Of a DNA stretch of 64,000 nt, positions 950 to 58,345 are shown piece after piece (positions within the stretch are counted from its first letter, which is position 1; each line of letters opens with the position of its first letter). The position numbers and the translations under genes are program-made. This stretch comes from Squalus acanthias (Eukaryota), in the NCBI GenBank assembly GCA_030390025.1, contig CM059432.1, positions 2,108,001 through 2,172,000 on the forward strand. Reading direction: 5' to 3'. Under the pieces are notes generated by a model that ran no database searches, was not told where the DNA came from, and saw only the letters and a list, made by a program, of their open reading frames with translations.

Positions 950-1305
950 GTTAAAATTGTGAAGGGGTTTCGATAGGGTAGGCGTAGAGAAGATGTTTTC
1001 ACATACAGGGAGACCTGAACTAGGGGCCATCAATATAAGATAGTGAGTAATAAATCCAATGGGGAATTCAGGAGAAACTTCTTTACCCAGAGAGTGGTGA
1101 GAATGTGGAACTCGTCACCACAGGGAGTGGTTGAGGCCAATAGTATAGATACATTTAAGGGGAAGCTAGATAAGCACATGAGGGAGAAAGGAATAGAAGG
1201 ATATGATGATGGGGTGAGATGAAGAGGGGTGGAAGGAGGCTCGTGTGGAGCATAAACACCGGCACGGGCCTGTTGGGCCGAATGGCCTGTCTCAGTGCTG
1301 TAGGT
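950..1305 (+). mobile_element. CR1-type LINE 3' fragment
   Basis: RRNFFTQRVVRMWN-type ORF2 C-terminus plus 3' UTR, seen many times in the window. Confidence 0.85.
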
Positions 1306-1308
1306 TCT

Positions 1309-1820
1309 ACACGAGCCTCCTCCCACCCCTCTTCACCTCACCCCATCATCATATCCTTCTATTCCTTTCTCCCTCATGTGTTTATCGAGCTTCCCCTTAA
1401 ATGCATCTGTGCTATTCGCCTCAACCACTCCCTGTGGCAGCGAGTTCCACATTCTCACCACTCTCTGGGTAAAGAAGTTTCTCCCAATTCCTTATTGGAT
1501 TTATTAGTGACGATCTTATCTTTATGACCCCTAATTTTGGTCTCCTCCCACAAGTGGAAACATCTTCTCTACGCCTACCCTATCAGACCCCGTCATTATG
1601 TTAAACTCTTCTAACAGGTCACCCCTCAGCCTTCTCTTTTCTAGAGAAAAGAGCCCCAGCCTGTTCAGTCTTTCCTGATAGTTAGAACCTCTCAGTTCTG
1701 GTACCATCTTGTCAATCTTTTTTTTGTTCTTTTTTGTAATATGGAGACCAGAACTGTGCACAGTATCTGAGTGTGGTCTCACGAAGGTTCGATACAAGTT
1801 TAACATAACTTCCCTGCTAT
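1309..1820 (-). mobile_element. CR1-type LINE 3' fragment (inverted partner of 950-1305)
   Basis: ORF 1531..1806(-) contains ERLNRLGLFSLEKRRLRGDL. Confidence 0.85.
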
Positions 1821-2909: not shown

Positions 2910-3438
2910 TATTTCTACTTATGCCAGAAAGATTGGCTCAGCCTGTTGATGAATGGAGAATAGCTGAAATCAGCTATTACTTAGAATAAAGTCTTAATAA
3001 AAAGTCAGGAGGTAGATTCGATTGAAGGCACATAAGTGGTACTTTAAAAAAAAATTGTTTTAAATGATGAAATAAAGCAGGAGAGGATGAGGAATAGACT
3101 GTGTATATCTCACTGCACTCTCCTGCATGGATTGCCTTGCTGTGAACCTTGGATAGACCACATTCAGAGTACTGCGCACAGTTCTGGTCTCCATATTGTA
3201 AAAAGGTTACAGAGGCACTGGAGAAGGTGCAAAATAGATTTCCAAGGATGATACCAGGACTGAGAGGTTATAACTATCAGGAGAGACTGAACAGGCTGGG
3301 GCTCTTTTCTCTAGAAAAGAGAAGGTTGAGGGGTGACCTGATAGAGGTCTTTAAAATTATGAAGGGGTTCAATAGGGTAGAAGCAGAGAAGATGTTTCCA
3401 CTTGTTGGCAAGACCAAAACTAGGGGTCATAAATATAA

Positions 3439-3580
3439 AATAAAGGTTCTGACGAAAGGTCATCGACCTGAAACGTTAACTCTGTTTCTCTCTCCACAGA
3501 TGCTGCCTGACCTGCTGAGTATTTCCAGCACTTTCTATTTTTATTTCAGATTTCCAGCATCTGCAGTATTTTGCTTCTGC
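3439..3580 (+). mobile_element. Penelope-like element terminal fragment (family A) with 11-bp TSD
   Basis: Flanked by CATAAATATAA at 3428-3438 and 3581-3591 inside a CR1. The same sequence follows the GIY-YIG tail at 7440-7508. Confidence 0.8.
3445..3481 (+). ncRNA. Minimal type I hammerhead ribozyme motif (family A)
   Basis: GGUU-CUGACGA-A-AGGUC(AUC)GACCU-GAAA-CG-UU^AACU: intact core, helix II, 4-bp helix I and palindromic ACGU helix III. Confidence 0.8.
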
Positions 3581-3730
3581 CATAAATATAAGCTAATCAC
3601 TAATAAATCCAATCGGGAATTCAGGAGAAACTTCTTTACCCAGAGAGTGGTGAGAATGTGGAACTTGCTACCACAGGGAGTGGTTGAGGCGAATAGCACA
3701 GATGCATTTAAGGGGAAGCTAGATAAACAC

Positions 3731-4787
3731 GAGGTCCCTCAAGGATCTATCCTTGGCCCCCTCCTATTTCTCATCTGCATGTTGCCCCTTGGCAACATCA
3801 TCCGAAAACACAGCATCAGATTCCACATGTACGCTGACGACAGCCAGCTCTACCTCACCACCTCTTCTCTTGATCCCTCCACTGTCTCTAAATTGTCAGA
3901 CTGCTTGTCCGACATCCAGTTGTGGATGAGCAGAAATTTTCTCCAATTAGATATTGGGAAGACCGAAGCCATTGTTTTCGGTCCCTGCCACAAACTCCGT
4001 TCCCTAGCCACTGACTCCATCCCTCTCCCTAACATCTGTCTGAGGCTGAACCACACTGTTCGCAACCTTGGTGTCATATTTGACCCTGAAACGAGCTTCC
4101 GACCACATATCCGCAGCATAACAAAGACCGCCTACTTCCACCTCTGTAACATCGCCCGTCTCCGCCCTTGCCTCAGCTCATCCGCTGCTGAAACCCTCAT
4201 CCATGCCTTTGTTACCTCTAGACTTGACTATTCCAACGCACTCCTGGCTGGCCTCCCACATTCTACCCTACGTAAACTTGAGGTCATTCAAAACTCGGCT
4301 GCCCGTGTCCTAACTCGCACCAAGTCCCGTTCACCCATCACCCCTGTGCTCGCTGACCTACATTGGCTCCCGGTTAAGCAGCGCCTCGATTTCAAAATTC
4401 TCATCCTCATTTTCAAATCCCTCCATGGCCTCGCCCCTCTCTATCTCTGTAATCTCCTCCCAGCCACACAACCTCCCCGAGATATCTGCGCTCCTCTAAT
4501 TCTGCCCTCTTGAGCATCCCTGATTATATTCGCTCAACCATTGGTGGCCGTGCCTTCTGTTGCCTGGGCCCTAAGCTCTGGAATTCCCTCCCTAAACCTC
4601 TCCGCCTCTCTCTCTCTCCTTTAAGACGCTCCTTAAAACCTCTCTCTTTGACCAAGCTTTTGGTCACCTGTCCTAATATCTCCTTATGTGGCTCGGTGCC
4701 AATTTTTTATCTTATAATACTTCTGTGAAGCGCCTTGGGACGTTTTACTACATTAAAGGCGCTATATAATTACAAGTTGTTGTTGTT
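3731..4787 (+). mobile_element. L2-type LINE 3' fragment (RT C-terminus + 3' UTR)
   Basis: VPQGSILGPLLF...YADDSQLY...HAFVTSRLDYSNALL...LHWLPVKQR, with tail GGCGCTATATAA..CAAG(TTG)n. Confidence 0.9.
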
Positions 4788-7419: not shown

Positions 7420-7817
7420 GAACAACATGATACTGGGGTCTCATCTTTCGATTCGGCACTTTACAGCCTTCTGGACTCAACATTGAGTTCAACAATTTCA
7501 GACTATAACCCCTGCCCCCATTTTTCAGGCTGTTGATGATTCTGCCATCCCCATTTGCAACATTTAATCTTTCCTGCCTCCTACCCTAGCACAGACCGTC
7601 CCTTGAATTCCTTCCTCCCCTCCCCTCCCCCTCTCCCTGTCTCTGCACCTGCTTAAAATCTGTCGCCTCTCTAACTTCTTCCAGTTCTGATGAAGGGTCC
7701 CAGACCTGAAACGTTGACTCTGTTTCTCTCTCCACGGATGCTGCCTGGCCTGCTGAGTATTTCCAGCGTTTTCTGTTGCTATTTCAGATTTCCAGCATCC
7801 GCAGTATTTTGCTCTGA
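7420..7817 (+). mobile_element. Penelope-like retroelement 3' end (GIY-YIG endonuclease C-terminus, 3' UTR, terminal repeat)
   Basis: EQH (7420-7428), then LIFRFGTLQPSGLNIEFNNFRL* (7440-7508), resembling the C-terminal motif of PLE GIY-YIG domains; followed by a pyrimidine-rich UTR and a hammerhead. Confidence 0.8.
7683..7719 (+). ncRNA. Minimal type I hammerhead ribozyme motif (family A)
   Basis: AGUU-CUGAUGA-A-GGGUC(CCA)GACCU-GAAA-CG-UU^GACU. Substitutions relative to 3445 preserve pairing. Confidence 0.75.
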
Positions 7818-11884: not shown

Positions 11885-13157
11885 ATCATAGAATCATTAC
11901 AGCACAGAAGGAGGCCATTCGGCCCGTCGAGCCCGTGCCGGCTCTCTGCAAGAGCACTTCAGCTAGTCCCACTCCCCCCCGCCCTTTCCCCGTAGCCCTG
12001 CAAATTTTTTCCTTCAGGTACTTATCCAACTCCCTTTTGAAAGCCATGATTGAGTCTGTCTCCACCACCCTTTCAGGCAGTACATTCCAGATCCTAACCA
12101 CTCGCTGCGTAAAAAAGTTTTCCCTCATGTCTCCTTTGGTTCTTCAGCCAATCACCTTAAATCTATGTCCTCTGGTTCTCGACCCTTCCTCCAATGGGAA
12201 CAGTTTCTCTCTATCTGCTCTGTCCAGACCCCTCATGATTTTGAACACCTCTATCAAATCTCCTCTCAACCTTCTCTGCTCGAAGGAGAACAACCCCAGC
12301 TTCTCCAGTCTATCCACGTAACTGAAGTCCCTCATCCCTGGAATCATTCTCGTAAATCTTTCTGCACCTTCTCTAAGGCCTTCACATCCTTCCTAAAGTG
12401 CAGTGCCCAGAATTGGACACAGTACTCCAGTTGGGGCCGAACCACAGTTTTATACAGGTTCATCATAATTTCCACACTTTTGTGCTCTATACCTCTATTC
12501 ATGAAGCCCAGGATCCCGTAAACCTTTTTAACTGCTTTCTCAACCTGCCCTGCCACCTTCAACAATTTGTGCACATATACCCCCAGGTCTCTCTGTTCAT
12601 GCACCTCCTTTAGGATTGTACCATTTAGTTTATATTTCCACCCTTCATTCTTTCTACCAAAATGTATCACTTCACACTTTTCTGCGTTAAATTTCATCTG
12701 CCACGTGTCCGTCCATTCCACCAGCCTGTTTATGTCCTTTTGAAGTCTATCACTATCCTCCTCACTGTTCACTATACTTCCAAGTTTTGTGTCATCTACA
12801 AATTTTAAAATTGTGCCCTGTACACCCACGTCCAAGTCATTAATATATATTAAGAAAAGCAGTGGTCCTAGAACCGACCCCTGGGGAACACCACTGTATA
12901 CCTTCCTCCAGTCTGAAAAACAACCGTTCACCACTACTCTCGGTTTCCTGTCACTTAGCCAATTCCGAATCCATACTGCCACAGTCCCTTTTATTCCATG
13001 GGCTTCAACTTTGCTAGTAAGCCTATTATGTGGCACTTTGTCGAACGCCTTGTGGAAGTCCATGCACATCACGTCAACCGCATTGCTCTCATCAACCCTC
13101 TCTGTTACCTCATCAAAAAACTCGATCAGGTTGGTTAAACAAGATTTGCTTTTAACA
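11885..13157 (-). mobile_element. CR1 LINE fragment containing the reverse transcriptase domain
   Basis: KSCLTNLIEFFD...DFHKAFDKVPH...SGVPQGSVLGPLLFLIYINDL...FVDDTKL, with a frameshift near 12345. Confidence 0.9.
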
Positions 13158-13224
13158 AGGTAATTGGCAAAAGAACCAGAGGTGACATGAGGAAAAACAA
13201 TTTTCACGCAGCGAGTTGTTGTGT

Positions 13225-14196
13225 TAGAACATAAGAACATAAGAAATTGGAGCAGGATTAGGCCATTCGGCCCTTCGAGCCTGCTCCGCCTTCCAATGAG
13301 ATCATGGCTGATCTTCTGCCTCAACTACATTCACCGGCCCTATCGCCATATCCCTTGATGCCCTTACTAGTCAGAATCTATCGACTTCTGTTTTGAATAT
13401 ACCCAATGACTGAGCCTCCACAGCCCTCTGGGGTAGAGAACTCCAAAAATTCACCACCCTCTGTGTGAAGAAATTTCTTCTCATCTCAGTCCTGAATGGC
13501 CTACCCTTTATCCTGAGGCTGTGGCCCCTGGTTCTAGACTCCCCAGCCAAGGGAAACATTCTCCCAGCATCCATCCTATCAAGCCCTGTAATAATTTTGT
13601 ATGCTTCAATGAGATCCCCTCTCATTCTTCTGAATTCAAGAGAATGCAGGCCTAGTTTACTCAATCTCTTCTCATACGACAGTCCCGCCATCCCAGGAAT
13701 CAACCTCGTGAACCTTCGTTGCACTCCCTCTATGCCAAGTGTATCCTTCCTTAGGTAAGAAGACCAAAATTGTACACAGTACTCCAGGTGTGGTCTCACC
13801 AAGGCCCTATATAATTGGAGTAAGACTTCTTTACTCCTGTACTCAAATCCTCTTGTAATGAAGGCCAGCAGACTATTTGCCTTCCTAACGGCTTGCTGCA
13901 CCTGCACATTCACTTTCAGTGACTCATGTACAAGGACACCCAGGTCCCGTTGAGCATCTGCATTCCCCAATCTTTCACCATTTAGGAAATACTCTGCCTA
14001 TCTGTTTTTTCTACCAAAGTGGATAACTTCACATTTATCCACATTATATTCCACCTGCCATGGTCTCGCCCACTCACTGAGCCTGTCGAGATCCCCTTGA
14101 AGCCTCTTCACAACTGACACTGCCACCTCGCTTTGTATCATCAGCAAATTTGGAAATGTTACATTTAGTCCCCTCATCCAAATCATTGATATAGAT
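13225..14196 (-). mobile_element. CR1 LINE 3' fragment (second subfamily)
   Basis: QRDLGVLV...LVRPHLEYCVQFWS...SLEFRRMRGDLIE, with a (TTCTTATG)n tail. Confidence 0.9.
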
Positions 14197-18666: not shown

Positions 18667-18978
18667 CATACACAGACACACTCAGACACACACACACACT
18701 CACACACACACACTCAGACACACACACACACACACTCACACACACACACACACACACACTCTCACACACAACTCAGACACACACACACACACACACACAC
18801 TCTCACACAGACACACACACTCTCAAACACTCACACACACACACACTCACGACACACACACACACACACTCAGACACACACACACACTCACACACACACA
18901 CACTCACACACTCACACAGACACACTCACACAGACGCACACACTCAGACACACACACACACACTCACACACACACACA

Positions 18979-19017
<39 letters not shown>

Positions 19018-19048
19018 AGACACACACACACACACTCACACACACACT

Positions 19049-19080
<32 letters not shown>

Positions 19081-20100
19081 CTCAAACACTCACACACATA
19101 CACACTCACACACACACACACACACACTCAGACACACACACACACTCACACACACACACACTCACACACTCACACAGACACACTCACACACACTCAGACA
19201 CACACACACACTCTCACACACACACACACTCACACACACACACACACACACACTCACACACACACACTCAGACACACACACACACTCTCACACACACACA
19301 CTCACACACACACACACACACACACTCACACACACACACACACACACACTCTCACACACACACACACTCACACACACACTCTCACACACACACACACACA
19401 CACTCACACACACACACACTCACACTCAGACACACACACACTCACACACACTCACTCACACACTCACTCACACACAGACACACTCAGACACACACACACT
19501 CACACTCACTCACACACACACACACACACACAGACACTCACACACACACACTCAGACACACACACACACTCACACTCACACACACACTCACATAGACACA
19601 CAAACACTCACACACTCACACACACACACACACATGCACGTACACACACTCACACACTCACACTCCCTCACACACACACACCCTCACACACACACTCACA
19701 CATAGACACACTCTCACACTCACACACAGACATACTCACACTCACACAAACCCTCACACACACACTCACACTCTCTCACACTCACACACCCTCACACACA
19801 CACTCACACTCAGACACACACACACAGGCACACACACACCCTCACACTCAGACACACAGACACACTCACACACACACTCACACAGACACACACACACTCA
19901 CACGCAGACACACACGCAGACACACACTCACCACACACTCACACACACCCTCACACACACCCTCACACACTCACACAGACACACCCACAGACACACACCC
20001 ACAGACAGAGACACACACTTAGAGACACACAATTAGAGACACACTCACACAGACACAGACACAGACACACACACTCACACAGACACAGACACAGACACAC
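18667..20100. repeat. Complex (CA)n microsatellite with CT/GA interruptions
   Basis: ~1.4 kb of CACA with CTCA/CAGA variants. Confidence 0.95.
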
Positions 20101-22760: not shown

Positions 22761-22799
22761 GAGTTCTGACGAAAGGTCATCGACCTGAAACATTAACTC
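22761..22799 (+). ncRNA. Minimal hammerhead motif (family A; helix III palindrome mutated to ACAU)
   Basis: GAGUU-CUGACGA-A-AGGUC(AUC)GACCU-GAAA-CA-UU^AACUC. Confidence 0.65.
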
Positions 22800-22860
22800 T
22801 TTTTCTGTCTTCACAGATGCTGCTTGACCTGCTGAGTTTCTCCAGCATTTTCTGTTTTTA
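22764..22860 (+). mobile_element. 97-bp Penelope-like terminal fragment (family A) with 13-bp TSD
   Basis: TCTTAAAGGGGAG at 22751-22763 and 22861-22873. Confidence 0.8.
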
Positions 22861-27617: not shown

Positions 27618-28715
27618 TCATAGAATCATACAACACAGAAGGACAACCCTTCGGCCCATCGTGCCTGTGCTGCCTCACTGATAGAGCTACCCAATTAGAC
27701 CCAATTCCCCCTGCTCTTTCCCCACAGCCCTGCAGTTTTTTTTACTTTTCAAGTATTTCTCCAATTCTCTTTTGAAAGTTACTATTGAATCTGCTTCCAC
27801 CGCCCTTTCAGGCAGCGCATTCCAGATCATAACAACTCACTGCGTAAAAAAAAATCTCCTCATCTCCTCCCTCTGGTTTTTTGCCAATTATCTTAAATCT
27901 GTGTCCTCTGGTTACCGACCCTCCTGCCAGTGGAAACAGTTTCTCCTTATTTACTCTATCAACACCCCTTAAGATTTTGAACCCCTCCAATAAATCTCCC
28001 CTTAACCGTCTCTGCTCTAAGGAGAACAATCCCAGCTTCTCTCCAGTCTCTTCACTTAACTGAAGCCCCTCATCCCTGCTACCATTCTAGTAAATCTCCT
28101 CCGCACTCTCTCCAAGGCCTTGACATCCTTTCTAAAGTCTGGTGCCCAGAATTGGAGACAATACTCCAGCTGGGGTCTAATCCTTCTTGAACACAAAAAC
28201 AAGGAAGTCATGCTAAACCTTTACAAGTCTCTGGTTAGGCCTCAGCTGGAGTATTGTGTACAATTCTGGGCACCACAGTTTAGGAAGGATGTCAAGACCT
28301 TGGGGAAGGTACAGAGGAGGTTTACCAGGATGATACCAAGGATGAGGGACTTCAGTTATGTGGATAGATTGGAGAAGCTGGGATTGTTCTCCTTGGAGCA
28401 GAGAAGGTTAAGGGAAGACCTAATAGAGGTATTCTAAAAAAGATTTAAAATAATTGACAAAAGAACTGGAGGGGAATTGAAGAGAAATTTCTTCACACAG
28501 AGGGTTGTTAAGATCTGGAACGCACGACCTGAAAGGGCAGTGGAAGCAGATTCCACAGGAACTTTCAAAAGGCAAATGGACACGTACTTGAAGAGAACTA
28601 ATTTGCAGGGTTATGGGGAAAAAGTCAGGGAGTGGGACTAATTGGAGAGCTCTTTCAAAGAGCCGGCACAGATACGACGGGCCGAATGGCCTCCTCCTGC
28701 GCTGTAAGAGTCTAT
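27618..28715. mobile_element. Two CR1 3' fragments in opposite orientations (27618-28160 minus, 28165-28715 plus)
   Basis: SLEQRRLRGDL and LYKSLVRPQLEYCVQFW motifs. Confidence 0.8.
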
Positions 28716-31102: not shown

Positions 31103-32232
31103 TACAACAACAACAACTTGTATTTATATAGCGCCTTTAACGTAGTAAAACGTCCCAAGGCGCTTCACAGGAGTATTTTAACACAAAAAATTTGACACCA
31201 CATTAGGATAAATTATGGCAGGTGACCAAAAGCTTGGTCAAAGAGGTAGGTTTTAAGGAGCGTCTTAAAGGAGGAAAGAGAGGTAGAGAGACGGAGAGGT
31301 TTAAGCAGGGAATTCCAGAGCTTAGGGCCCAGGCAACAGAAGGCACGGCCACCAATGGTTGAGCGATTATAATCAGGGATGCTCAAGAGGGCAGAATTAG
31401 AGGAGCGCAGATATCTCGGGGGGTTGTGGGGCTGGAGGAGATTACAGAGATAGGGAGGGGCGAGGCCACGGAGGGATTTGAAAACAAGGATGAGAATTTT
31501 GAAATCAAGGCCAATGTAGGTCAGCGAGCATAGGGGTGATGGGCAAACGGGACTTGGTGCGAGTTAGGACACGGGCAGCTGAGTTTTGGATGACCTCATG
31601 TTTACGTAGGGTGGAATGTGGAAGGCCAGTCAGGAGTGCATTGGAATAGTCAAGTCTAGAGGTAACAAAGGCATGGATGAGGGTTTCAGCAGCGGATGAG
31701 CTGAGGCAGGGGCGGGGACGGGCGATGTTACGGAGGTGGAAGTAGGCGGTCTTTGTTATGCTGCGGATATGTGGTCGGAAGCTCATTTCAGGGTCAAATA
31801 TGACACCAAGGTTGCGAACAGTGTGGTTCAGCCTCAGACAGATGTAGGGAGAGGGATGGAGTCAGTGGCTAGGGAACGGAGTTTGTGGCGGGGACCGAAA
31901 ACAATGGCTTCAGTTTTCTCAATATTTAATTGGAGAAAATTTTTGCTCATCCAGAACTGTATGTCGGACAAGCAGTCTGACAATTTAGAGACCGTGGAGG
32001 GTTCGAGAGAAGCGGTGGTGAGGTAGAGCTGGGTGTCATCAGCGTACATGTGGAAAGTGACGCTGTGTTTTCGGATGATGTCGCCAAGGGGCAACATGTA
32101 GATGAGAAATAGGAGAGGGCCAAGGATAGATCCTTGGGGGACACCAGAGGTAATGATGCGGGAGCGGGAAGAGAAGCCATTGCAGGTGATTCTCTGGCTA
32201 CGATTAGATAGATAAGAGTGGAACCAGGCGAG
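31103..32232 (-). mobile_element. L2 LINE 3' fragment with RT domain, inserted into a GA tract
   Basis: WFHSYLSNRSQ...SGVPQGSILGPLLFLIYMLPL...YADDTQLY, with a (CAA)n tail at 31104. Confidence 0.9.
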
Positions 32233-34666
32233 TGCGAGTGCAGATAAAGAAAGAGAAAGAGAGGAGAGAGAGAAAGAGAGAGGAGAGAGAGAAAGAGAAA
32301 GAGAGAGGAGAGAGAGAAAGAGAAAGAGAGGAGAGAAAGAGAGAGGAGAGAGAGAAAGAGGAAGGATAGAGAGAAAGAGAAAGGAGAGAGAGAAAGAGAA
32401 AGAGAGGAGAGTGAGAAAGAGAGAGGAGAGAGAGAAAGAGAAAGAGAGGAGAGAGAGAAAGAAAAAGAAAAAGAGAGACATGCATTCCTCAAGCACCTTT
32501 CACAACCTCACCACATCCCAAAGTGCTCGACAGCCAATGAAGTACTTTTGAAGTGTAGCCACTGTTGTCATGTAGAAACTATAGAGGTTAAAAATGCTGC
32601 AGGAGGAGATAAACGAGACAGTAACACCAGGCATTGGCTAATGACACTTCTGCTTCTCACCAGCTAATATTTGGTCCTCCGGGGCCTGCCTCTCCACTCT
32701 AAATCGGAACACATCTGAGACGCCCAAAAATAGTTCAGGCAGCTGGGGGAATAGGATGCCTTGGCGTCTCCAGGGAGCTTTAGGCACGATAGCTTGACTC
32801 AAGGACATGTGCCTTTCCAAACAAAATGAGGTAATCTTAACTTTCTAAGAGATGGACCTGAGCAACTACACTGGGGAAAAAAAAGTCTTCAAATCATTGG
32901 CTTAACTAAAGGGAGAGGGTGGGGGAGGAGGGGAAGGAAAGGAGAGTGCCTGTAATCAAAAGACCGTGGATAGTTGAAAGAATACCAGGGCAGCTTGACT
33001 CAAACCATGTGCTGGTGATCCCATCTTCACCTGCCATCAAATATCATCAACAGAATTTTCTCTACCGTCCCTGGGCACGCAGTTACCCTGGTCAGCATCT
33101 TCAACTGCTACCACTGGGATATCTTTGGAAGCGCCACAGCCAGACTGTGGAAAAATATTCCTCTGTGTGGTATTGATAACAGAAATCACAAATACTTTCT
33201 TAATAAACAACAACTTGTATTTATAGAGCGCCTTTAATGTAGCAAGAACATCCCCAAGGCGTTGCACAGGAGTGTTGGACAACATTTGACACCGAGCCAC
33301 ATAAGGAGATATTAGGACAGGTGACCAAAAGCTCGGTCAAAGAGCATTTTAAGTTGCGTCTTAAAGGAGGAGAGAGAGAGAGAGGTAGGAAAGTGCAGAG
33401 GTTTAGGGAGGGAATTTCAGAGCTTAGGGCCCAGAACATAAGAATTAGGAGCAGGAGTCGGCCGTACGGCCCCTCGAGCCTGCTCCACCATTCAATAAGA
33501 TCATGGCTGATCTTCGACCTCAACTCCACTTTCCCGCTCGATCTCCATATCCCTTGATTCCCCAAGAGTCCAAAAATCTATCGATCTCAGCCTTGAATAT
33601 ACTCAATGATTCAGCATCCACAGCCCTCTGGGGTAGAGAATTCCAAAGATTCACAACCTTCTGAGTGAAGAGATTCCTCCTCATCTCAGGAATTTCTTCA
33701 CTCAGAGGGTTGATGGCGCGGCCGCCAATGGTGGAGCGAAGGAAACTGGGGACGCGCAAGACAAACGTGTTTACAATTTTGCTGCACATTGCAAACCAAG
33801 GTTTCATTACCCGCTAAGTTCTCCTTTATAAATTATGCTGATGACATCTGCTCAAGAAGAAGCAGCCTTGACCAACTAGTCTAATCACCTGAAAACACTC
33901 AAAAAAACTATAACTTGGTTTGCCTCCAGCTCAACTTTTTTCATTGCTATCTTGAAAGAAATACCCCAGTGCAAGATGTGTACGCATGTCCTGGCCAGCT
34001 GGGACAGTATCAAACAAGTTACTTTGGACTGGTGTCTCATCAATCAGATCCAGATTTCATCTGTGCGTAAACCAAAAATAAAAAGAAAATTTTTAGCTCT
34101 GGATTGTCATATCTCATCCCAACATCCAAGTACGAGCGCTGGCTACCAGCCCTGGCTAAATGAGGGATGCAGTGTAGCATTGAGCACGAAAAGCACCAAC
34201 GTTTGCACAGCTGGAAGAAGATCAAGCAACCGACCGAAAGGAAACTCATCACCGTATGAACTTAAAACAACTCGCTAGAAGTGAAAGCCCAAGATCCAGG
34301 ACACATGTTTTTCAGACAAGTTCTGAGGGTTGATCCAAGGTACTTAAAAATTGGTTTCCAAAAATTGCGACTCATTTCACAACATCGCCAAAGTCACATG
34401 AAATTTAAAGGCTAGGTCCCGGCACAGACACGATGGGTCGAACGGCCTCCTTCTGTGCCGCAAATTTCTATGATTCTATACCTAAAAATAACCAAGAGAA
34501 TTGGATAAATACTTGAAGGGAGAAAACATTTCAGGGCTACGGGCAAAGAGCAGGGGGAGTGAGATTAATCGGAGAGCTCTACCAAAGAGCCGGCACAGAC
34601 ACGATGGGCCAAATGGCCTCCTTCTGTGCTGAATCATTCTATGATTCTATGAATTCATTCTAGATG

Positions 34667-34785
34667 TGAGAAGTCGCACAACACCAGGTTATAGTCCAAC
34701 AGCTTTATTTGAATTCACAAGCTTTCGGAGCGCTGCTCCTTCGTCAGTGCGACTTCTCACATTTGTCCAACACCGGCATCTCCAC
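34667..34785 (-). mobile_element. Penelope-like family B fragment with internal inversion; hammerhead core at 34716-34750 (-)
   Basis: GTGAGAAGTCGCAC (34666-34679) is inverted relative to GTGCGACTTCTCAC (34747-34760). TSD TTCATTCT(A/C)GATG at 34654-34666 and 34786-34798. Confidence 0.7.
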
Positions 34786-40170: not shown

Positions 40171-42480
40171 CCACACACCCTCACACACACACACACCCTC
40201 ACGCACACACCCTCACACACAAACACACACCCTCACACACACACACCCACACACACCCTCACACACACACACTCACACACACAACCTCACACACACACAC
40301 CCACACACACACACACACCCTCACACACACACACACCCACACACACACACACCCACACACACACACACACCCTCACACACACACACTCACACACACAACC
40401 TCACACACACACACCCACACACACCCTCACACACACACACCCACACACACCCTCACACACACACCCACACACACACACACCCACACACACACCCTCACAC
40501 ACACACCCACACACACACCCTCACACACACACACCCTCACACACACACCCCCACACACACACACCCTCACACACACACACCCTCACACACACACTCACAC
40601 ACACCCTCACACACACCCTCACACACACACACCCTCACACACACCCTCACACCATCACACACACCCTCACACACACACTCACACACACACCCTCACACAC
40701 ACACACCCTCACACACACCCTCACACCATCACACACACTCACACACCCTCACACCATCACACACCCACACACACACACCCTCACACACACACTCACACAC
40801 ACACTCACACACACACCATCACACACACCCTCACACACACACCATCACACACACATCGTCACACACACCCTCACACACACACCCTCACACACACACACCC
40901 TCACACACACACTCACACACACACCCTCACACACACACCCTCACACACACACACCCTCACACACACACCCTCACACACACTCACACACCCTCACACCCTC
41001 ACACCCACACACACACACCCTCACACACCCTCACACACACACTCACACACACACACCATCACACACACACCATCACACACACACCGTCACACACACCCTC
41101 ACACACACACCCTCACACACACACACACTCACACACACACCCTCACACACACACACCCTCACACAGCCTCACACACACACACCCTCACACACACACCCTC
41201 ACACACGCACACCCTCACACACACCCTCACACACACACACACTCACACACCCTCACACACACACTCACACACACACCCTCACACACACACCCTCACACAC
41301 ACACACCCTCACACCATCACACACACCCTCACACACACACTCACACACACCCTCACACACACACACCCTCACACACATCCTCACACCATCACACACCCTC
41401 ACACCATCACACACCCACACACACACACCCTCACACACACCCACACACTCACTCACACACACACCATCACACACACCCTCACACACACCATCACACACAC
41501 ACCGTCACACACACCGTCACACACACCTCACACACACCCTCACACACACCCTCACACACACACCATCACACACACACCGTCACACACACCGTCACACACA
41601 CCCTCACACACACACTCACACACACACCGTCACACACACCCTCACACACACACCCTCACACACACACCATCATACACTCACCCTCACACACACACACCCT
41701 CACACAGCCTCACACACACACACCCTCACACACACACAGCCTCACACACACACCCTCACACACGCACACCCTCACACACACCCTCACACACACACACTCA
41801 CACACCCTCACACACACACCCTCACACACCCTCACACACACACTCACACACACCCTCACACACACACCCTCACACACACACACCCTCACACACACCCTCA
41901 CACACACACACACTCACACACCCTCACACACACACCCTCACACACCCTCACACACACACTCACACACACCCTCACACACACACCCTCACACACACACCCT
42001 CACACACACACCCTCACACACACCCTCACACCATCACACACACTCACACCCTCACACACACACTCACACACACACCCTCACACACACACCCTCACACACA
42101 CACTCACACACACACCCTCACACACACCCTCACACACACACCCTCACACACACCCTCACACCATCACACACACTCACACACGCTCACACCATCACACACC
42201 CACACACACTCACACACACTCACACACACACCCTCACACACACAGTGTCACACACACCATCACACACACACCCTCACACACACACCCTCACACACACGCC
42301 ATCACACACACACCCTCACACACACACACTAACACACACCCTCACACACACACCCTCACACACACTCACACACTCACTCACACACACACACCCTCACACA
42401 CACACCCTCACACACACCCTCACACACACTCACACACACCCTCCCACACACACCCTCGCCCTCACCCTCACACACACACG
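40171..42480. repeat. Complex CA microsatellite with CCCT/CCAT punctuation
   Basis: ~2.3 kb of CCCT(CA)n units. Confidence 0.95.
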
Positions 42481-48036: not shown

Positions 48037-48231
48037 GGCCTGCACTAGGACCTTGGGCACAGTCACACCCGTAGTGCGAAGCAGCTAAATGTAAACTCTC
48101 CGTTCACATTCCACCAGCTCCGAGCTCGATTCTGCGACGCCCATTTCAAGCTTGTGATTATGCCAAACGATTTCAGTTCATCGATAACCTTTAGAATCTT
48201 GAAAACTTCAGTCATGACTCCTCCAGTCACC

Positions 48232-48992
48232 TGAGCTGTGGCTCACTGGGTAGCACCCTCGCCTCTGAGGCAGAAGGTTGTGGGTTCAAGTCCCACTCCA
48301 GACTCTAGAGCACATAAAGCTAGGCTGACACTCCCAGTGCAGTACTGAGGGAGTGCTGCACTGTCGGAGGTGCCGTCTTTCGGATGAGACGTTAAACTGA
48401 GGCCTCATCTGCTCTCTCAGGTGGACGTAAAAGATCCCATGGCACCTCTACCTGACGAAGGGGCAGCAGCTCCGAAAGCTCGTAATTTTAAATAAAACTG
48501 TTGGACTATAACCTGGTGTTGTGCGACTTCTCATTTTTGTCCACCCCAGTCCAACACCGACATCTCCGCATCATGACTATTTCAAAGAACAGCAAGGGAG
48601 TTCTCCCCGGTGTCCTGGCCAATGTTTATCCCTCAATCAACATCACTAAAACAGATTATCTGGTCATTATCACATTAGTACAATACTACAAATCTCATCC
48701 CATTCTAACTACATTGCCTCTACCAAGACCAATCCACAATGATGGTCCTTTGATGTATCTCAGGTGCGTCACGTCCCGAGGTTGTGAAGTGCACTATATA
48801 AAGGTAAGTCTCACTTCCTTCACCAGACTGGTCATTATCACATCGCTGTTTGTGGGAGCTTGCTGTGCGCAAATCAGCTGCTGCGTTTCCCACATTACAA
48901 CAGTGACTACACTTCAAAAAGTACCTCATTGGCTGTAAAGCGCTTTGAAATGTCCGGTGGTCGTGAAAGGTGCTATAAAAATGCAAGTCTTT
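48232..48992 (+). mobile_element. DeuSINE-type SINE carrying two insertions
   Basis: Head at 48232; PLE insert at 48446-48574; 152-bp insert at 48676-48827. Confidence 0.85.
48449..48484 (+). ncRNA. Minimal type I hammerhead ribozyme motif (family B)
   Basis: UAC-CUGACGA-A-GGGGC(AGCA)GCUCC-GAAA-GC-UC^GUA, with palindromic AGCU helix III, inside the PLE insert 48446-48574. Confidence 0.75.
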
Positions 48993-49384
48993 CTTAAAAA
49001 AAACCCTATTAAATAAGGGAAAAATTAAACAGGTAAGATTGCACTGAATATGCATCTAGTCTTCAACGGAAAGTTGGGAGGTATGTAATGATGGCTGTAA
49101 CTTAGAACGGCCAAATTAGTTAGCAATAGGATGACAAAATCCAATGTGACAACACACAGTGTCTGTCACAATCCCTTCACAGTTCTAAGGTGATAAGAAG
49201 ATCCTGAGGACATGCATTGTAACAGGGTAAATGGCCGTTAAGGTTGAGAAATTTTGTCGAAGTGGCAACTAGGATAACACGACAAAGGAATAATACATAG
49301 AATTTTACAGCACAGAAACAGGCCATTCGGCCCAACTGGTCCATGCTGGTGTTTGTGCTCCACACCAGCCTCCTCCCATTTTAC

Positions 49385-49516
49385 AAGTCGCTCTCTGTGT
49401 ATATATACTGTGTATTAGATTCCCTCACTGTACCTCTACCTGACGAAGGAGCAGCAGCTCCGAAAGCTGGTAATTTTAAATAAAACTGTTGGACTATAAC
49501 CTGGTGTTGTGCGACT
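49385..49516 (+). mobile_element. Penelope-like family B fragment with 11-bp TSD; hammerhead at 49437-49472 with a CUG triplet
   Basis: TCCCATTTTAC at 49374-49384 and 49517-49527 inside a CR1 UTR. Confidence 0.75.
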
Positions 49517-49660
49517 TCCCATTTTACTTCAACTAACTCTATCAGCGTCTCCTTCTATTCCTTTCTCCCTCCTGTGTTTATCCAGCTTCCCCTTAAATGC
49601 ATCTGTGCTATTCGCCTCAACCACTCCCTGTGGTAACGAGTTCCACATTCTCACCACTCT

Positions 49661-50567: not shown

Positions 50568-51039
50568 ACGATAGCAAAATACTGCGGATGCTGGAAATCC
50601 GAAATAACAACAGAAAACGCTGGAAAAACTCAGCAGGCCAGGCAGCATCCGTGGAGAGAGAAACAGAGTTAACGTTTCAGGTCGAAGACCTTTCGTCAGA
50701 ACTGGAAATAGCAGGAAATGAAATAGATTTAAGGCAAGGATAAAGCTGGGAAAAGCGGGAGGGGATGAAAGAACAAAAGGAGAGATTAAGAGACATTAAG
50801 AGATGATCAAGGCAAGAGGTGGTGTTAATGTGACAGGTTGAGGCTAAAAGACTTGGCAGATACCTGATCAAACACGAGAAGAGAAACTGAAAGCAGTGAA
50901 GATGAACAAGGTTGAAGAGACAAACGGAGGTCCCGTCGAAGAGAAGAGCAGAACTTCTTCAAGGTAGTCATTCCTAGAAGAGAGGTGGCAGTGGACCAAA
51001 CACTAATACGATAGCAAAATACTGCGGATGCTGGAAATC
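50568..51039 (-). mobile_element. Internally deleted Penelope-like element with a 32-bp terminal direct repeat
   Basis: ACGATAGCAAAATACTGCGGATGCTGGAAATC at 50568-50599 and 51008-51039. A short ORF (50971-50825, MTTLKKFCSSLRRDLRLSL...) is joined to the family A 3' region. Confidence 0.7.
50667..50703 (-). ncRNA. Minimal type I hammerhead ribozyme motif (family A), sense to ZNF521
   Basis: AGUU-CUGACGA-A-AGGUC(UUC)GACCU-GAAA-CG-UU^AACU. Confidence 0.8.
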
Positions 51040-54065: not shown

Positions 54066-55418
54066 TATCGTATTGATGTGCGCCCGCATTTATACAGCGC
54101 CTTTCACGACCTCAGGACATCCCAAAGCCAATTAAGTATTTTTTTGGAGTGTAGTCACTGTTGTAATGTAGGAGAAGCGGCAGCCATATTGCGCACAGCA
54201 AGCTCCCACAAATAGCAATGTGTTAACGACCGGATAATCTGGGTTTTTTTTTTAAGTGGTGTTGGTTGAGGGATAAATATTGGCCCCAGGTCACACGGGG
54301 AGAACTCGCCCTGCTCTTCTTCGAAATAGTGGCCGTGGGATCTTTTACGTTCACCCGAGAGAACAGACGGGGCCACGATGAGAAAAGTGCTTCTTCACCC
54401 ATTGGAGACAATATTTTTTTTACAATCGGGAGAGATTTATGCAGGAAAGAGGTTCACACACAGTTAAAGTACAAACGAAAATGGCTGCGTTAATTCCGAC
54501 CTCGCTTTTTGGTTGGATTTGATCTGATTGAATGGCTCGAGGGGCTGAATGGCCTCCTCCTGTTCCTGTGTTCACAGGCTTCAAGTATAAATGATGCAGA
54601 CATAGTTTTAATTGGAATTCAAATTAATGCCCCCATTTCTCTTTGACCACACAGCTGGCCATGGAGCTAGGAGACTCCCACCAGGCCAGTATAAAAACAC
54701 CAGATGTGAATCTCTTGTCGTTTTCTGCGGATATAGGAAACTTGGCGCATGCGCCGGGCTGGAAATCCAATACCTCTCCTTACAGCCGAACCCCTGGCCC
54801 GAGAGAGAGAGAGAGAGAGAGAAACAGACAAGGGGACAAAGAATAAATTTAGATGCGGCTCGGCACTTTCAAACTGTAACCAAACACGACGCGAGCTGGT
54901 GCGACTGCGCAGTTGGGCGAACGCTTTAGCCAACAACGGAACATAAAAACACAAGACAAAAGCAAAATACTGCAGATGCTGGAAATCTGAAATAAAAACA
55001 GAAAATGTTCTCTCCACAGATGCTGCCTGACCTGCTGAGTATCTCCAGCATTTTCTGTTTTTATTTTCTATAAGAACATAAGAATTAGGAGCAGGAGTTG
55101 GCCACACGGCCCCTCGAGCCTGCTCCGCCATTCAATAAGATCATGTCTGATCTTCGACCTCAACTCCACTTTCCCGCCCGATCCCCATATCCCTCGATTC
55201 CCCTCGAGTCCAAAAATCTATCGATCTCAGCCTGGAATATACTCAACAACTGAGCATCCACAGCCCTCTGAGGCGGAGAATTCCAAAGATTCGCAATCTG
55301 CTGAGTGAAGAAATTCCTCCTTATCTCAGTCTTAAATGGCCTACCCCTTATCCTGAGACTATGCCCCCTAGTTCTAGACTCCCCAGCCAGGAGAAACAAC
55401 CTCTCAGCATCTACCCTG

Positions 55419-56677
55419 TCAATCCCCTTCAGAATCTTCAATCCCCCTCAGAATCTTCACTCCCCCTCAGAATCTTCAATCCTCCTCAGAATCTTCAATC
55501 CCCCTCAGAATCTTCAATCCCCCCTCAGAATCTTCAATCCCCCTCAGAATCTTCACTCCCCCTCAGAATCTTCAATCCTCCTCAGAATCTTCACTCCCCC
55601 TCAGAATCTTCAATCCTCCTCAGAATCTTCAATCCTCCTCAGAATCTTCACTGCCCCTCAGAATCTTCAATCCCCCTCAGAATCTTCAATCCTCCTCAGA
55701 ATCTTCAATCCCCCTCAGAATCTTCAATCCCCCTCAGAATCTTCAATCCTCCTCAGAATCTTCACTCCCCCTCAGAATCTTCAATCCCCCTCAGAATCAT
55801 CCATCCTCCTCAGAATCTTCAATCCTCCTCAGAATCTTCAATCCCCCTCAGAATCATCCATCCTCCTCAGAAACTTCAATCCTCCTCAGAATCTTCAATC
55901 CCCCTCAGAATCTTCAATCCTCAGAATCTTCAATCCCCCTCAGAATCTTCAATCCTCCTCAGAATCTTCAATCCCCCTCAGAATCATCCATCCTCCTCAG
56001 AATCTTCAATCCTCCTCAGAATCTTCAATCCCCCTCAGAATCTTCAATCCTCAGAATCTTCAATCCCCCTCAGAATCTTCAATCCCCCTCAGAATCTTCA
56101 ATCCTCCTCAGAATCTTCACTCCCCCTCAGAATCTTCAATACCCCTCAGAATCATCCATCCTCCTCAGAATCTTCAATCCTCCTCAGAATCTTCAATCCC
56201 CCTCAGAATCATCCATCCTCCTCAGAATCTTCAATCCTCCTCAGACTCTTCAATCCCCCTCAGAATCTTCAATCCTCAGAATCTTCAATCCCCCTCAGAA
56301 TCTTCAATCCTCCTCAGAATCTTCAATCCTCCTCAGAATCTTCAATCCCCTCAGAATCTTCAATCCTCCTCAGAATCTTCAATCCCCTCAGAATCTTCAA
56401 TCCTCCTCAGACTCTTCAATCCTCCTCAGAATCTTCAATCCCCTCAGAATCTTCAATCCCCCTCAGAATCTTCAATCCCCTCAGACTCTTCAATCCCCCT
56501 CAGAATCTTCAATCCCCTCAGAATCTTCAATCCTCCTCAGAATCTTCAATCCTCAGAATCTTCAATCCCCTCAGAATCTTCAATCCCCTCAGAATCTTCA
56601 ATCCCCCTCAGAATCTTCAATCCCCCTCAGACTCTTCAATCCTCCTCAGAATCTTCAATCCCCCTCAAAATCTTCAA
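55419..56677. repeat. Minisatellite, 19-bp unit TCAATCC(C/T)CCTCAGAATCT, roughly 65-70 copies
   Basis: Tandem array with 16-20 bp unit variants, continuous with the CR1 fragment at 55070-55437(-). Confidence 0.95.
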
Positions 56678-57547: not shown

Positions 57548-58345
57548 TCAAAAGTACTTCATTGGCTGCAAAGTGTTTTGGTACGTCCTGAGGATGTGAA
57601 AGGTACTATATAAATGCAAGTCTTTCTTTCTACAGGGAGAGCAGGAGTCAAGAAAGAAAGGAAGTACTTTTTGAAGTGGAGTCGCTGTTGTAATGTAGGA
57701 AACGCGGCAGCCAATTTGTGCACAGCAAGCTCCCACAAACAGCAATGTGATAATGACCAGGTCATCTGTTCTTGTGATGTTGATTGAGGGAAAAATATTG
57801 GCCAGGACACCGGGGAGAACTCTCCTGCTCTTCTTCAAAATAGTGCCCTGGGATCTTGTACGTCCACCTGAGAGAGCAGACGGGGCCTCGGTTTAACGTC
57901 TCATCCGAAATAGGGCACCTCTAACAATGCAGCACTCCCTCAGTACTGACCCTCCAACAGTGCGGCGCTCCCTCAGTACTGCTCCTCCGATAGTGCGGCG
58001 CTCCCTCAGCACTGCCCCTCCGACAGTGCAGCGCTCCCTCAGTACTGCCCCTCCGACAGTGCTGTGCTCCCTCAGTACTGACCCTCCGACAGTGCGGCGC
58101 TCCCTCAGTACTGACCCTCCGACAGTGCAGCGCTCCCTCAGTACTGCCCCTCCGACAGTGCGGTGCTCCCTCAGTACTGCCCCTCCGACAGTGCGGCACT
58201 CCCTCAGTACTGCCCCTCCGACAGTGCAGCACTCCACTGGAGTGTCAGCCTGGATTTTTGTGCTCGGGTCTCTGGAGTGGGACTTGAACCCACAACCTTC
58301 TGACTCAGAGGCGAGGGTGCGACTCACTGAGCCACAGCTGACACA
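57548..58345 (-). mobile_element. DeuSINE-type SINE with an expanded internal 33-bp tandem repeat (57915-58232)
   Basis: About 9-10 units of CTCCCTCAGTACTGCCCCTCCGACAGTGCGGCG between the SINE head and body. Confidence 0.9.

What the first reader, a model, noticed from the sequence alone, without database searches (positions are those of the whole stretch)
48446..48574. Second hammerhead family with a different dimerisation palindrome (AGCU versus ACGU)
Seen: UAC-CUGACGA-A-GG(A/G)GC(AGCA)GCUCC-GAAA-GC-UC^GUA, with an unrelated tail (AATAAAACTGTTGGACTATAACCTGGTG), four copies in the window (30110, 34716-, 48449, 49437). Helix III is AGCU here and ACGU in family A; each is self-complementary, but the two cannot pair with each other. 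Inference: two co-resident PLE families use orthogonal codes so that each ribozyme dimerises only with its own family, a self-recognition system at the RNA level.
Basis: partly seen in the sequence, partly recalled or inferred. Interest (0 to 1): 0.7.

Follow-up and report, generated by a model that had tools for sequence, protein, structure and literature searches.

The report
Penelope-type minimal hammerhead, AGCU variant
This is a short leftover end-piece of a jumping gene carrying a known kind of small self-cutting RNA motif; its four-letter pairing palindrome does differ from that of a neighbouring family, but such differences are already published and look like ordinary variation, not a selected self-recognition code.

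Summary
The motif is real. 48444-48575 is a 132-bp 5'-truncated end of a Penelope-like element, inserted into a SINE. It carries a minimal type I hammerhead with AGCU at helix III; family A has ACGU in 3 of 4 copies. AGCU and ACGU cannot pair, but a selected code is not supported. (1) Cervera and De la Pena 2014 already list AGCU and ACGU families together in Schistosoma mansoni. (2) In their table 9 of 20 co-resident family pairs share a palindrome (5.9 expected), so there is no avoidance. (3) In a type I dimer helix I is also strand-swapped; A and B mismatch there too, so a palindrome swap alone should not cross-activate them. (4) Subfamilies B1 and B2 keep AGCU and differ in helix I. Cleavage, a family-B ORF and a genome-wide survey could not be tested. 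The scan noted such hammerheads before, in this genome and others. Side lead: 5 of 9 copies start within 9 nt upstream of the ribozyme core.

The parts
48444..48575 (+). Family B (subfamily B1) insertion: 5'-truncated pLTR end with hammerhead and tail; left boundary uncertain by 2 nt (AC)
   Evidence: Removing it rejoins the host GATCCCATGGC|ACTATTTC, as in other SINE copies
48449..48451 (+). Helix I 5' strand UAC
   Evidence: Pairs with 48482-84 in the fold and in the pairing table
48452..48459 (+). Core CUGACGA plus the extra A between positions 9 and 10.1
   Evidence: the extra nucleotide is a listed min-HHR trait
48460..48473 (+). Helix II GGGGC/GCUCC (one G.U) with loop AGCA
48474..48481 (+). 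GAAA core, palindrome AGCU (48477-80), C17 (48481); predicted cut after 48481
   Evidence: cut site inferred from standard hammerhead numbering
48482..48484 (+). Helix I 3' strand GUA
48537..48575 (+). Optional ~38-nt terminal tail, absent from the 3' ends of the other three B copies, present in the inverted arm of the 34747 copy
   Evidence: loose ends behind 49518 and 49525
48221..48996 (+). Host SINE (multi-copy in the window; DeuSINE/SacSINE1-like by recall, not tested) interrupted by the insertion; right end approximate
   Evidence: Flanks hit many window copies at about 78-97% identity
30104..30197 (+). B1 copy, C3 at 30113, G8A change, 12-bp TSD (30092-103 / 30198-209)
49385..49516 (+). 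B1 copy, C3 at 49440, G17, 7-nt inverted 5' arm, 11-bp TSD (49374-84 / 49517-27)
34662..34785 (-). B2 copy, C3 at 34747, fold-back 5' arm of ~38 nt, 8-bp TSD (34654-61 / 34786-93)
3439..3580 (+). Family A copy, C3 at 3449, ACGU, 11-bp TSD (3428 / 3581)
7621..7813 (+). Family A copy, C3 at 7687, ACGU (extent by similarity to the 50699 copy)
22764..22860 (+). Family A copy, C3 at 22766, ACAU (palindrome broken), 13-bp TSD (22751 / 22861)
50568..51039 (-). Family A copy, C3 at 50699, ACGU, with a 32-bp tail repeat at both ends (partial-tandem-like)
54961..55066 (.). Family A tail-only fold-back fragment, no hammerhead

Best explanation
Family B is a very high-copy Penelope-like retroelement of a shark-like vertebrate, and the finding is one of its short 3'-end insertions. 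Its pLTR carries a minimal type I hammerhead. Inferred from published work on this class: two motifs, normally the two pLTRs of one tandem transcript and probably helped by the element's protein, swap strands. The AGCU palindromes pair to give a shared 4-bp helix III, and each 5' helix I strand pairs with the partner's 3' strand. Self-complementarity of positions 15.2/16.2 is what is needed; which of the four possible palindromes a lineage uses is inherited and can drift (CG commonest; GC, UA, AU rarer). A and B are old, unrelated lineages that fail to cross-pair in helix III and in helix I as a by-product of divergence. Shown here: motif, copies, TSDs, inverted arms, tail, helix I compensatory change (phase inferred), in-silico incompatibility. 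Inferred: PLE identity of B, dimer cleavage, protein help. The copy at 48452 has an intact core but is a solo, ORF-less fragment and most likely inert.
For: Motif far above chance (7 vs 0.04). It fits the published consensus NNN CUGANGAH G..C GAAAN Palind NU H NNN and the four traits listed in PMC4209133. TSDs of 12, 11 and 8 bp in 3 of 4 B copies, inverted 5' arms in 2 of 4, optional ~38-nt tail: the tail and inverted copies are described PLE features (PMC8557442 passages; PMC11167929). Summed contig depth up to 6.4 million over the tail in run X5 against about 54 at the flank, and presence in a second organism's run (X6): high copy, though depth is no copy number. No other letter reached 3% at G15.2, C16.2 or U16.1 in the three contig runs, while position 17 and helix I position 1.3 varied. 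Helix I shows a two-sided change: U-A in B1; C-G in B2, from the 5' loose-end consensus of X5 (UUCAC) and the GUGAA of copy 34747. Published table: CG 29, GC 5, UA 5, AU 1, CA 1 of 41 minimal motifs; co-resident pairs share codes at least as often as chance. Helix I x2 contributes -8.4 (A) and -6.0 (B) kcal/mol against -5.8 and -6.6 for helix III.
Against: No family-B ORF or full-length element was seen: no genome is held, the metagenome scan found 0 matches and the window has no B-linked RT (one search covered 22 of the 24 ORFs of >=150 aa). No Rfam hammerhead match. Cleavage untested. A helix III mismatch alone costs about 8 kcal/mol in the model (B/B -16.1 to -7.7), so it is a real discriminator and selection on it is not excluded. 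The permutation test uses hand-picked representatives read from PDF text, and related families are not independent. The lack of variants at AGCU is not special: most positions of the stretch also show none. The copy at 48452 has no clear TSD.
Confidence: 0.8

Rival explanations
1. One reading: the helix III palindrome is a selected family code that stops A/B cross-dimerisation.
For: AGCU in 4 of 4 B copies, ACGU in 3 of 4 A copies; the two cannot pair. The mismatch costs about 8 kcal/mol in the model. GC is the rarer code, 5 of 41.
Against: 9 of 20 co-resident pairs share a code vs 5.9 expected, P(<=9)=0.94; 8 of 11 species have a shared code. Only four Watson-Crick codes for up to 6-8 families per genome (Fig. 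S4 legend). A and B are already incompatible in helix I (0-1 bp), also after an in-silico palindrome swap. B1 and B2 share AGCU. Dimers are thought to form between motifs of one tandem transcript.
Confidence: 0.05
2. Self-recognition is real and selected, but the barcode is helix I plus helix III together (10-14 intermolecular pairs), with helix I doing most of the fine discrimination between young subfamilies.
For: Both helices are intermolecular by topology; A/B mismatch in both. B1 and B2 differ by a compensatory pair in helix I.
Against: Compensatory change is expected from structure alone. B1 and B2 remain partly compatible: the B1 5' strand makes 3 bp with the B2 3' strand. No sign that cross-cleavage happens or harms. 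Ribozyme mutants did not affect insertion in vitro for the Anolis element.
Confidence: 0.07
3. The motif works as a protein-assisted monomer or has a structural role, and the palindrome is a relic; dimerisation is not the working mode in vivo.
For: The Anolis PAc hammerhead cleaves only with protein, mutants do not affect insertion, and no RNA-seq reads end at the cut site (PMC11167929). In the nearest-neighbour model even homodimers are uphill against the monomer ensembles (+9.7 A/A, +3.2 B/B kcal/mol). 0 of 9 window copies start at the cut site.
Against: 40 of 41 minimal motifs in the published table are palindromic; monomers were inactive while dimers and trimers cleaved weakly.
Confidence: 0.08

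Closest known systems
Minimal hammerheads (min-HHR) in the pLTRs of metazoan Penelope-like elements (Cervera and De la Pena 2014, PMC4209133; main text parts 1-2 of 4 and supplement parts 1-2 of 3 read)
   Same: Type I topology, short helix I, extra nucleotide after A9, G10.1-C11.1, no loop III, palindromic 15.2/16.2, mostly solo truncated copies, several families per genome. AGCU listed for S. mansoni (1) and (3), Adineta vaga (2), Philodina roseola and Chrysemys picta; S. mansoni holds AGCU and ACGU families together.
   Different: No cartilaginous fish among the 56 rows read; this family's sequence is not in that table. A/B heterodimers were not tested in the parts read.
Small hammerhead variants of PLEs that cleave as dimers (Lunse, Weinberg and Breaker, RNA Biol, PMC5785218; not held, seen only as title and as cited in PMC6765202 and PMC6466107)
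   Same: Dimer-type hammerheads with palindromic, extremely short stem III in PLEs.
   Different: Text not available; it may hold palindrome-swap or heterodimer tests that bear on the claim.
Poseidon PAc of Anolis carolinensis (Frangieh et al. 2024, PMC11167929; passages and part 2 of section 3 read)
   Same: Vertebrate PLE with a pLTR hammerhead and an optional 30-40 bp tail.
   Different: PAc is characterised with its protein; here only ORF-less end fragments are seen and the clade is not determined.
Double-hammerhead of ASBVd and newt satellite RNA (PMC6466107 section 7; PMC7229834 passages)
   Same: Two motifs merge their stems III to become active.
   Different: Those have canonical helices I/II with tertiary loops and a short stem III with a tetraloop; the motif here has no loop III.

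Membership tests
PLE min-HHR | Core CUGANGA ... GAAA ... UH intact | tested here: met
   Met in 48452 and 34747; not in 30113 (A8) or 49440 (G17)
PLE min-HHR | [quoted passage not shown] | tested here: met
   A48459; G48460-C48473; 4 of 4 B copies
PLE min-HHR | Palindromic 15.2/16.2 with no loop III | tested here: met
   AGCU in 4 of 4 B copies; no variant at 3% or more in three contig runs
PLE min-HHR | Short helix I with covariation | tested here: met
   3 bp in B1; 5 bp in B2 with U-A to C-G change; the linkage of the B2 5' strand to its 3' strand is inferred, not phased
PLE min-HHR | Self-cleavage as a dimer | not testable with these tools
   Needs a cleavage assay; no raw RNA reads were listed
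Canonical type I hammerhead (Rfam) | Match to an Rfam hammerhead model | tested here: not met
   No hammerhead hit
Penelope-like element | ORF with telomerase-like RT and GIY-YIG endonuclease linked to the repeat | tested here: inconclusive
   None linked in the window; no genome; 0 metagenome matches
Penelope-like element | Optional 30-40 bp tail and inverted 5'-truncated arm | tested here: met
   Tail 48537-48575; inverted arms at 34748-34785 and 49385-49391; features described
Penelope-like element | Dispersed retro-insertions with variable-length TSD and 5' truncation | tested here: met
   TSDs of 12, 11 and 8 bp in 3 of 4 B copies; none clear at 48444
Non-LTR retrozyme | Tandem repeats, each unit with a hammerhead | tested here: not met
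   No tandem array covers any copy; definition
Selected orthogonal code (proposed) | Co-resident families share palindromes less often than chance | tested here: not met
   9 of 20 pairs share vs 5.9 expected in the published table; not testable genome-wide here
Selected orthogonal code (proposed) | Helix III alone decides A/B compatibility | tested here: not met
   In silico only: after a palindrome swap A/B still forms 1 and 0 bp of helix I

The most novel reading that the evidence does not exclude
Co-resident Penelope families are under selection to keep their strand-swapped hammerhead dimers family-specific, using a composite RNA barcode (helix III palindrome plus both helix I duplexes), so that one family's RNA cannot cleave, or be cleaved by, another's. 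B1 and B2 would be an early stage of such divergence.
Probability: 0.08. Interest if true: 0.65.

Novelty: new member of a known kind. Interest (0 to 1): 0.17.

Why it matters
As found, it adds one more vertebrate family to a described class and shows that most genomic copies are decayed or solo. The useful point is mechanistic: in a type I minimal hammerhead dimer helix I is swapped as well, so partner choice rests on 10-14 base pairs, not on two letters, and a palindrome-swap test alone would mislead. If a selected composite barcode were shown, it would be RNA-level self/non-self recognition among competing retroelements and would bear on the open question of what PLE hammerheads are for.

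Tried and rejected
Whole-genome survey: no genome held, so the palindrome survey across this genome's families was not run. Rfam: no hammerhead hit; the miRNA hits are fold-back repeats below gathering scores. Pfam on 22 of 24 long ORFs: RVT_1 in three, none adjoining a B copy. Sequencing runs: no RNA holder on record listed, which is no evidence on expression; X7 is only guessed to be RNA; raw-read run X21 laid 6 reads and was uninformative; only the B copy 49385-49535 was laid, so family A variation was not measured. Lunse et al. not held. Paper searches hammerhead+Penelope+heterodimer and hammerhead+Terminon+family-specific gave 0 papers; Penelope-like+shark+hammerhead ribozyme gave 1 review, listing only. 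Earlier findings by place (near) and by sequence: none. Rejected: chance motif; tandem retrozyme; copies as ribozyme cleavage products (0 of 9 start at the cut site). Energies are nearest-neighbour values without tertiary contacts, Mg2+ or protein, and treat A15.1-U16.1 as Watson-Crick; they rank options only.

Full report
Observation. The window (47% GC, repeat-rich; shark-like by recall of its repeats and by earlier notes on this genome) holds at 48449-48484 the motif UAC CUGACGA A GGGGC AGCA GCUCC GAAA GC U C GUA. By standard numbering A15.1-G15.2-C16.2-U16.1 is the palindrome AGCU (48477-80), C48481 is position 17, and UAC/GUA is a 3-bp helix I. A descriptor with intact core boxes and a helix II of at least 4 bp finds 7 sites against 0.04 on average in 200 shuffles; allowing one mismatch adds the eighth copy and four unrelated hits without a family. 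The eight fall into two families that are unrelated outside the core. B: 30113+, 34747-, 48452+, 49440+, all AGCU. A: 3449+, 7687+, 50699- with ACGU and 22766+ with ACAU. 30113 has A8 opposite C3; single C3 or G8 changes abolished cleavage in the Anolis element. 49440 has G17, which breaks the NUH rule (established knowledge). 34747 belongs to a second subfamily (B2) and lost its 5' helix I strand at an inversion junction. The three B1 copies are each 80 of 82 identical. Rfam gave no hammerhead match.

What the element is. The insertion is 48444-48575: taking it out rejoins a SINE that occurs many times in the window. The other three B copies have target-site duplications of 12, 11 and 8 bp, two have inverted 5' arms (7 and about 38 nt), and all three end about 38-45 nt earlier than the 48452 copy, whose extra tail is also found in the inverted arm of 34747. 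An optional 30-40 bp tail and inverted 5'-truncated copies are described features of Penelope-like elements (PMC8557442, passages; PMC11167929). Contigs laid on the 49440 copy reach a summed depth of 6.4 million over the tail against about 54 at the flank in run X5, and the family is also in a run of another organism (X6); this shows high copy number but does not count it. No ORF of family B was seen: no genome is held, a metagenome scan found nothing, and none of the 22 ORFs scanned that adjoin a B copy has an RT hit. PLE identity is therefore inferred from anatomy.

Variation within B. In X5 position 17 is U in 83% and C in 16% of summed depth; helix I position 1.3 is often G; no other letter reached 3% at G15.2, C16.2 or U16.1 in X5, X7 or X6. 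Most other positions showed no variant either, so this shows constancy, not special constraint. The loose-end consensus before 49438 in X5 (22 contigs, agreement 0.65) gives a 5' strand UUCAC that pairs over 5 bp with the GUGAA of copy 34747. B1 has U-A where B2 has C-G: a two-sided change that supports helix I, though the two strands were not phased on one record. So the two closest co-resident lineages keep the palindrome and differ in helix I.

Mechanism. PMC4209133 (main text parts 1-2 of 4) defines this motif class, argues that it works as a dimer through the palindrome, and found monomers inactive and dimers or trimers weakly active. A review (PMC6765202, passages) adds that tandem PLE layout would bring the two motifs together. 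From topology (my inference): when A15.1 of one motif pairs with U16.1 of the other, the core uses the partner's position 17 and the partner's 3' strand of helix I, so both helices I are intermolecular too. A x A gives 4 bp or more, B1 x B1 3 bp, A x B 0-1 bp. Nearest-neighbour terms are -8.4 (A) and -6.0 (B) kcal/mol for the two helices I and -5.8 and -6.6 for helix III. An in-silico palindrome swap restores helix III between A and B but leaves 1 and 0 bp of helix I. In fairness, a helix III mismatch alone also costs about 8 kcal/mol, so it does discriminate. All active dimers are uphill against the monomer ensembles in this model (+3.2 to +17.5), in line with a need for tandem linkage or protein; the Anolis motif cleaved only with its protein, and its mutants did not affect insertion in vitro.

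Is it a code? Four Watson-Crick codes exist, six with wobble, and the wobble ones cross-react. I read positions 15.2/16.2 from the 56 rows of Fig. S3 of PMC4209133 (PDF text) and dropped one duplicate row (intronless D. virilis). Of 41 minimal motifs 29 are CG, 5 GC, 5 UA, 1 AU, 1 CA; two random ones differ 48% of the time. Of 20 within-species pairs 9 share the code, against 5.9 +/- 2.2 in 20,000 permutations (P(<=9) 0.94, P(>=9) 0.12), and 8 of 11 multi-family species have a shared code. A selected code predicts fewer shared pairs. S. mansoni is listed with two GC and two CG families, so the very contrast reported here is in print. Limits: the rows are chosen representatives, related families are not independent, and column reading from the PDF can be off. 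The self-recognition idea itself was not found in print, but Lunse et al. (PMC5785218) could not be read and may hold swap tests; supplements of the bioRxiv preprint 10.64898/2026.07.22.740005 (parts 1-2 of 5 read) are closed.

Earlier notes of this scan describe the same class in this genome and in others; I used them as leads only. One of them pointed me to PMC11167929.

Verdict. A real, ordinary member of a described class, correctly spotted. The incompatibility of the two palindromes is true but most likely incidental (0.8). A code in helix III alone is unlikely (0.05); a selected composite helix I plus III barcode is not excluded (about 0.07). The clustering of 5' ends at the edge of the ribozyme (5 of 9 copies; binomial P 0.0009 if each copy had a 10% chance, a post hoc figure) is the side lead most worth a genome-wide look.

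Noticed in passing
window 3439, 22764, 30104, 34747(-), 48444: 5 of 9 A/B copies have their forward 5' boundary 0-9 nt upstream of C3; three extend further (7687, 49440, 50699) and one is tail-only (55009); none starts at the cut site. Possible reading (inferred): reverse transcription starts internally at the tail of the 5' pLTR and runs off a transcript end near the ribozyme, or stalls there. Small sample, post hoc.
   Followed up: partly
window 7668-7684 (+) and 50702-50720 (-): Family A has a pyrimidine tract and CAG directly before the helix I 5' strand, like a 3' splice site; PMC4209133 reports an intron ending at helix I in D. virilis Penelope. Copy 22766 starts right at that AG|TT.
   Followed up: no
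window 50568-51039 (-): Family A copy with a 32-bp tail repeat at both ends and about 330 nt between the upstream repeat and the hammerhead; looks like an internally deleted partial tandem.
   Followed up: partly
window 50662-50711 (-): Family A monomer folds into a trap in which the core's CUGAC(G) pairs with the ACGU palindrome region; family B with AGCU does not.
   Followed up: partly
window 30104, 48452, 49440: 3 of 4 B copies are subfamily B1, which is about a sixth of summed contig depth in run X5; perhaps local clustering, but depth is no copy number.
   Followed up: no
window 1167-1387 and 28091-28324: Long fold-back inverted repeats that give sub-threshold miRNA-family hits; probably SINE or LINE fragments in inverted orientation.
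   Followed up: no
window 3146-4513 (+), 12344-13324 (-), 31834-32499 (-): Reverse transcriptase (RVT_1) fragments of LINE type by context; the A copy at 3449 sits inside the first.
   Followed up: no
window 55419-56677 and 57924-58235: Minisatellites of 19 bp (67 copies) and 33 bp (9.5 copies); the 33-mer overlaps SINE-like sequence. Long CA-rich arrays at 18670-20100 and 40172-42479 explain the long open frames there.
   Followed up: no
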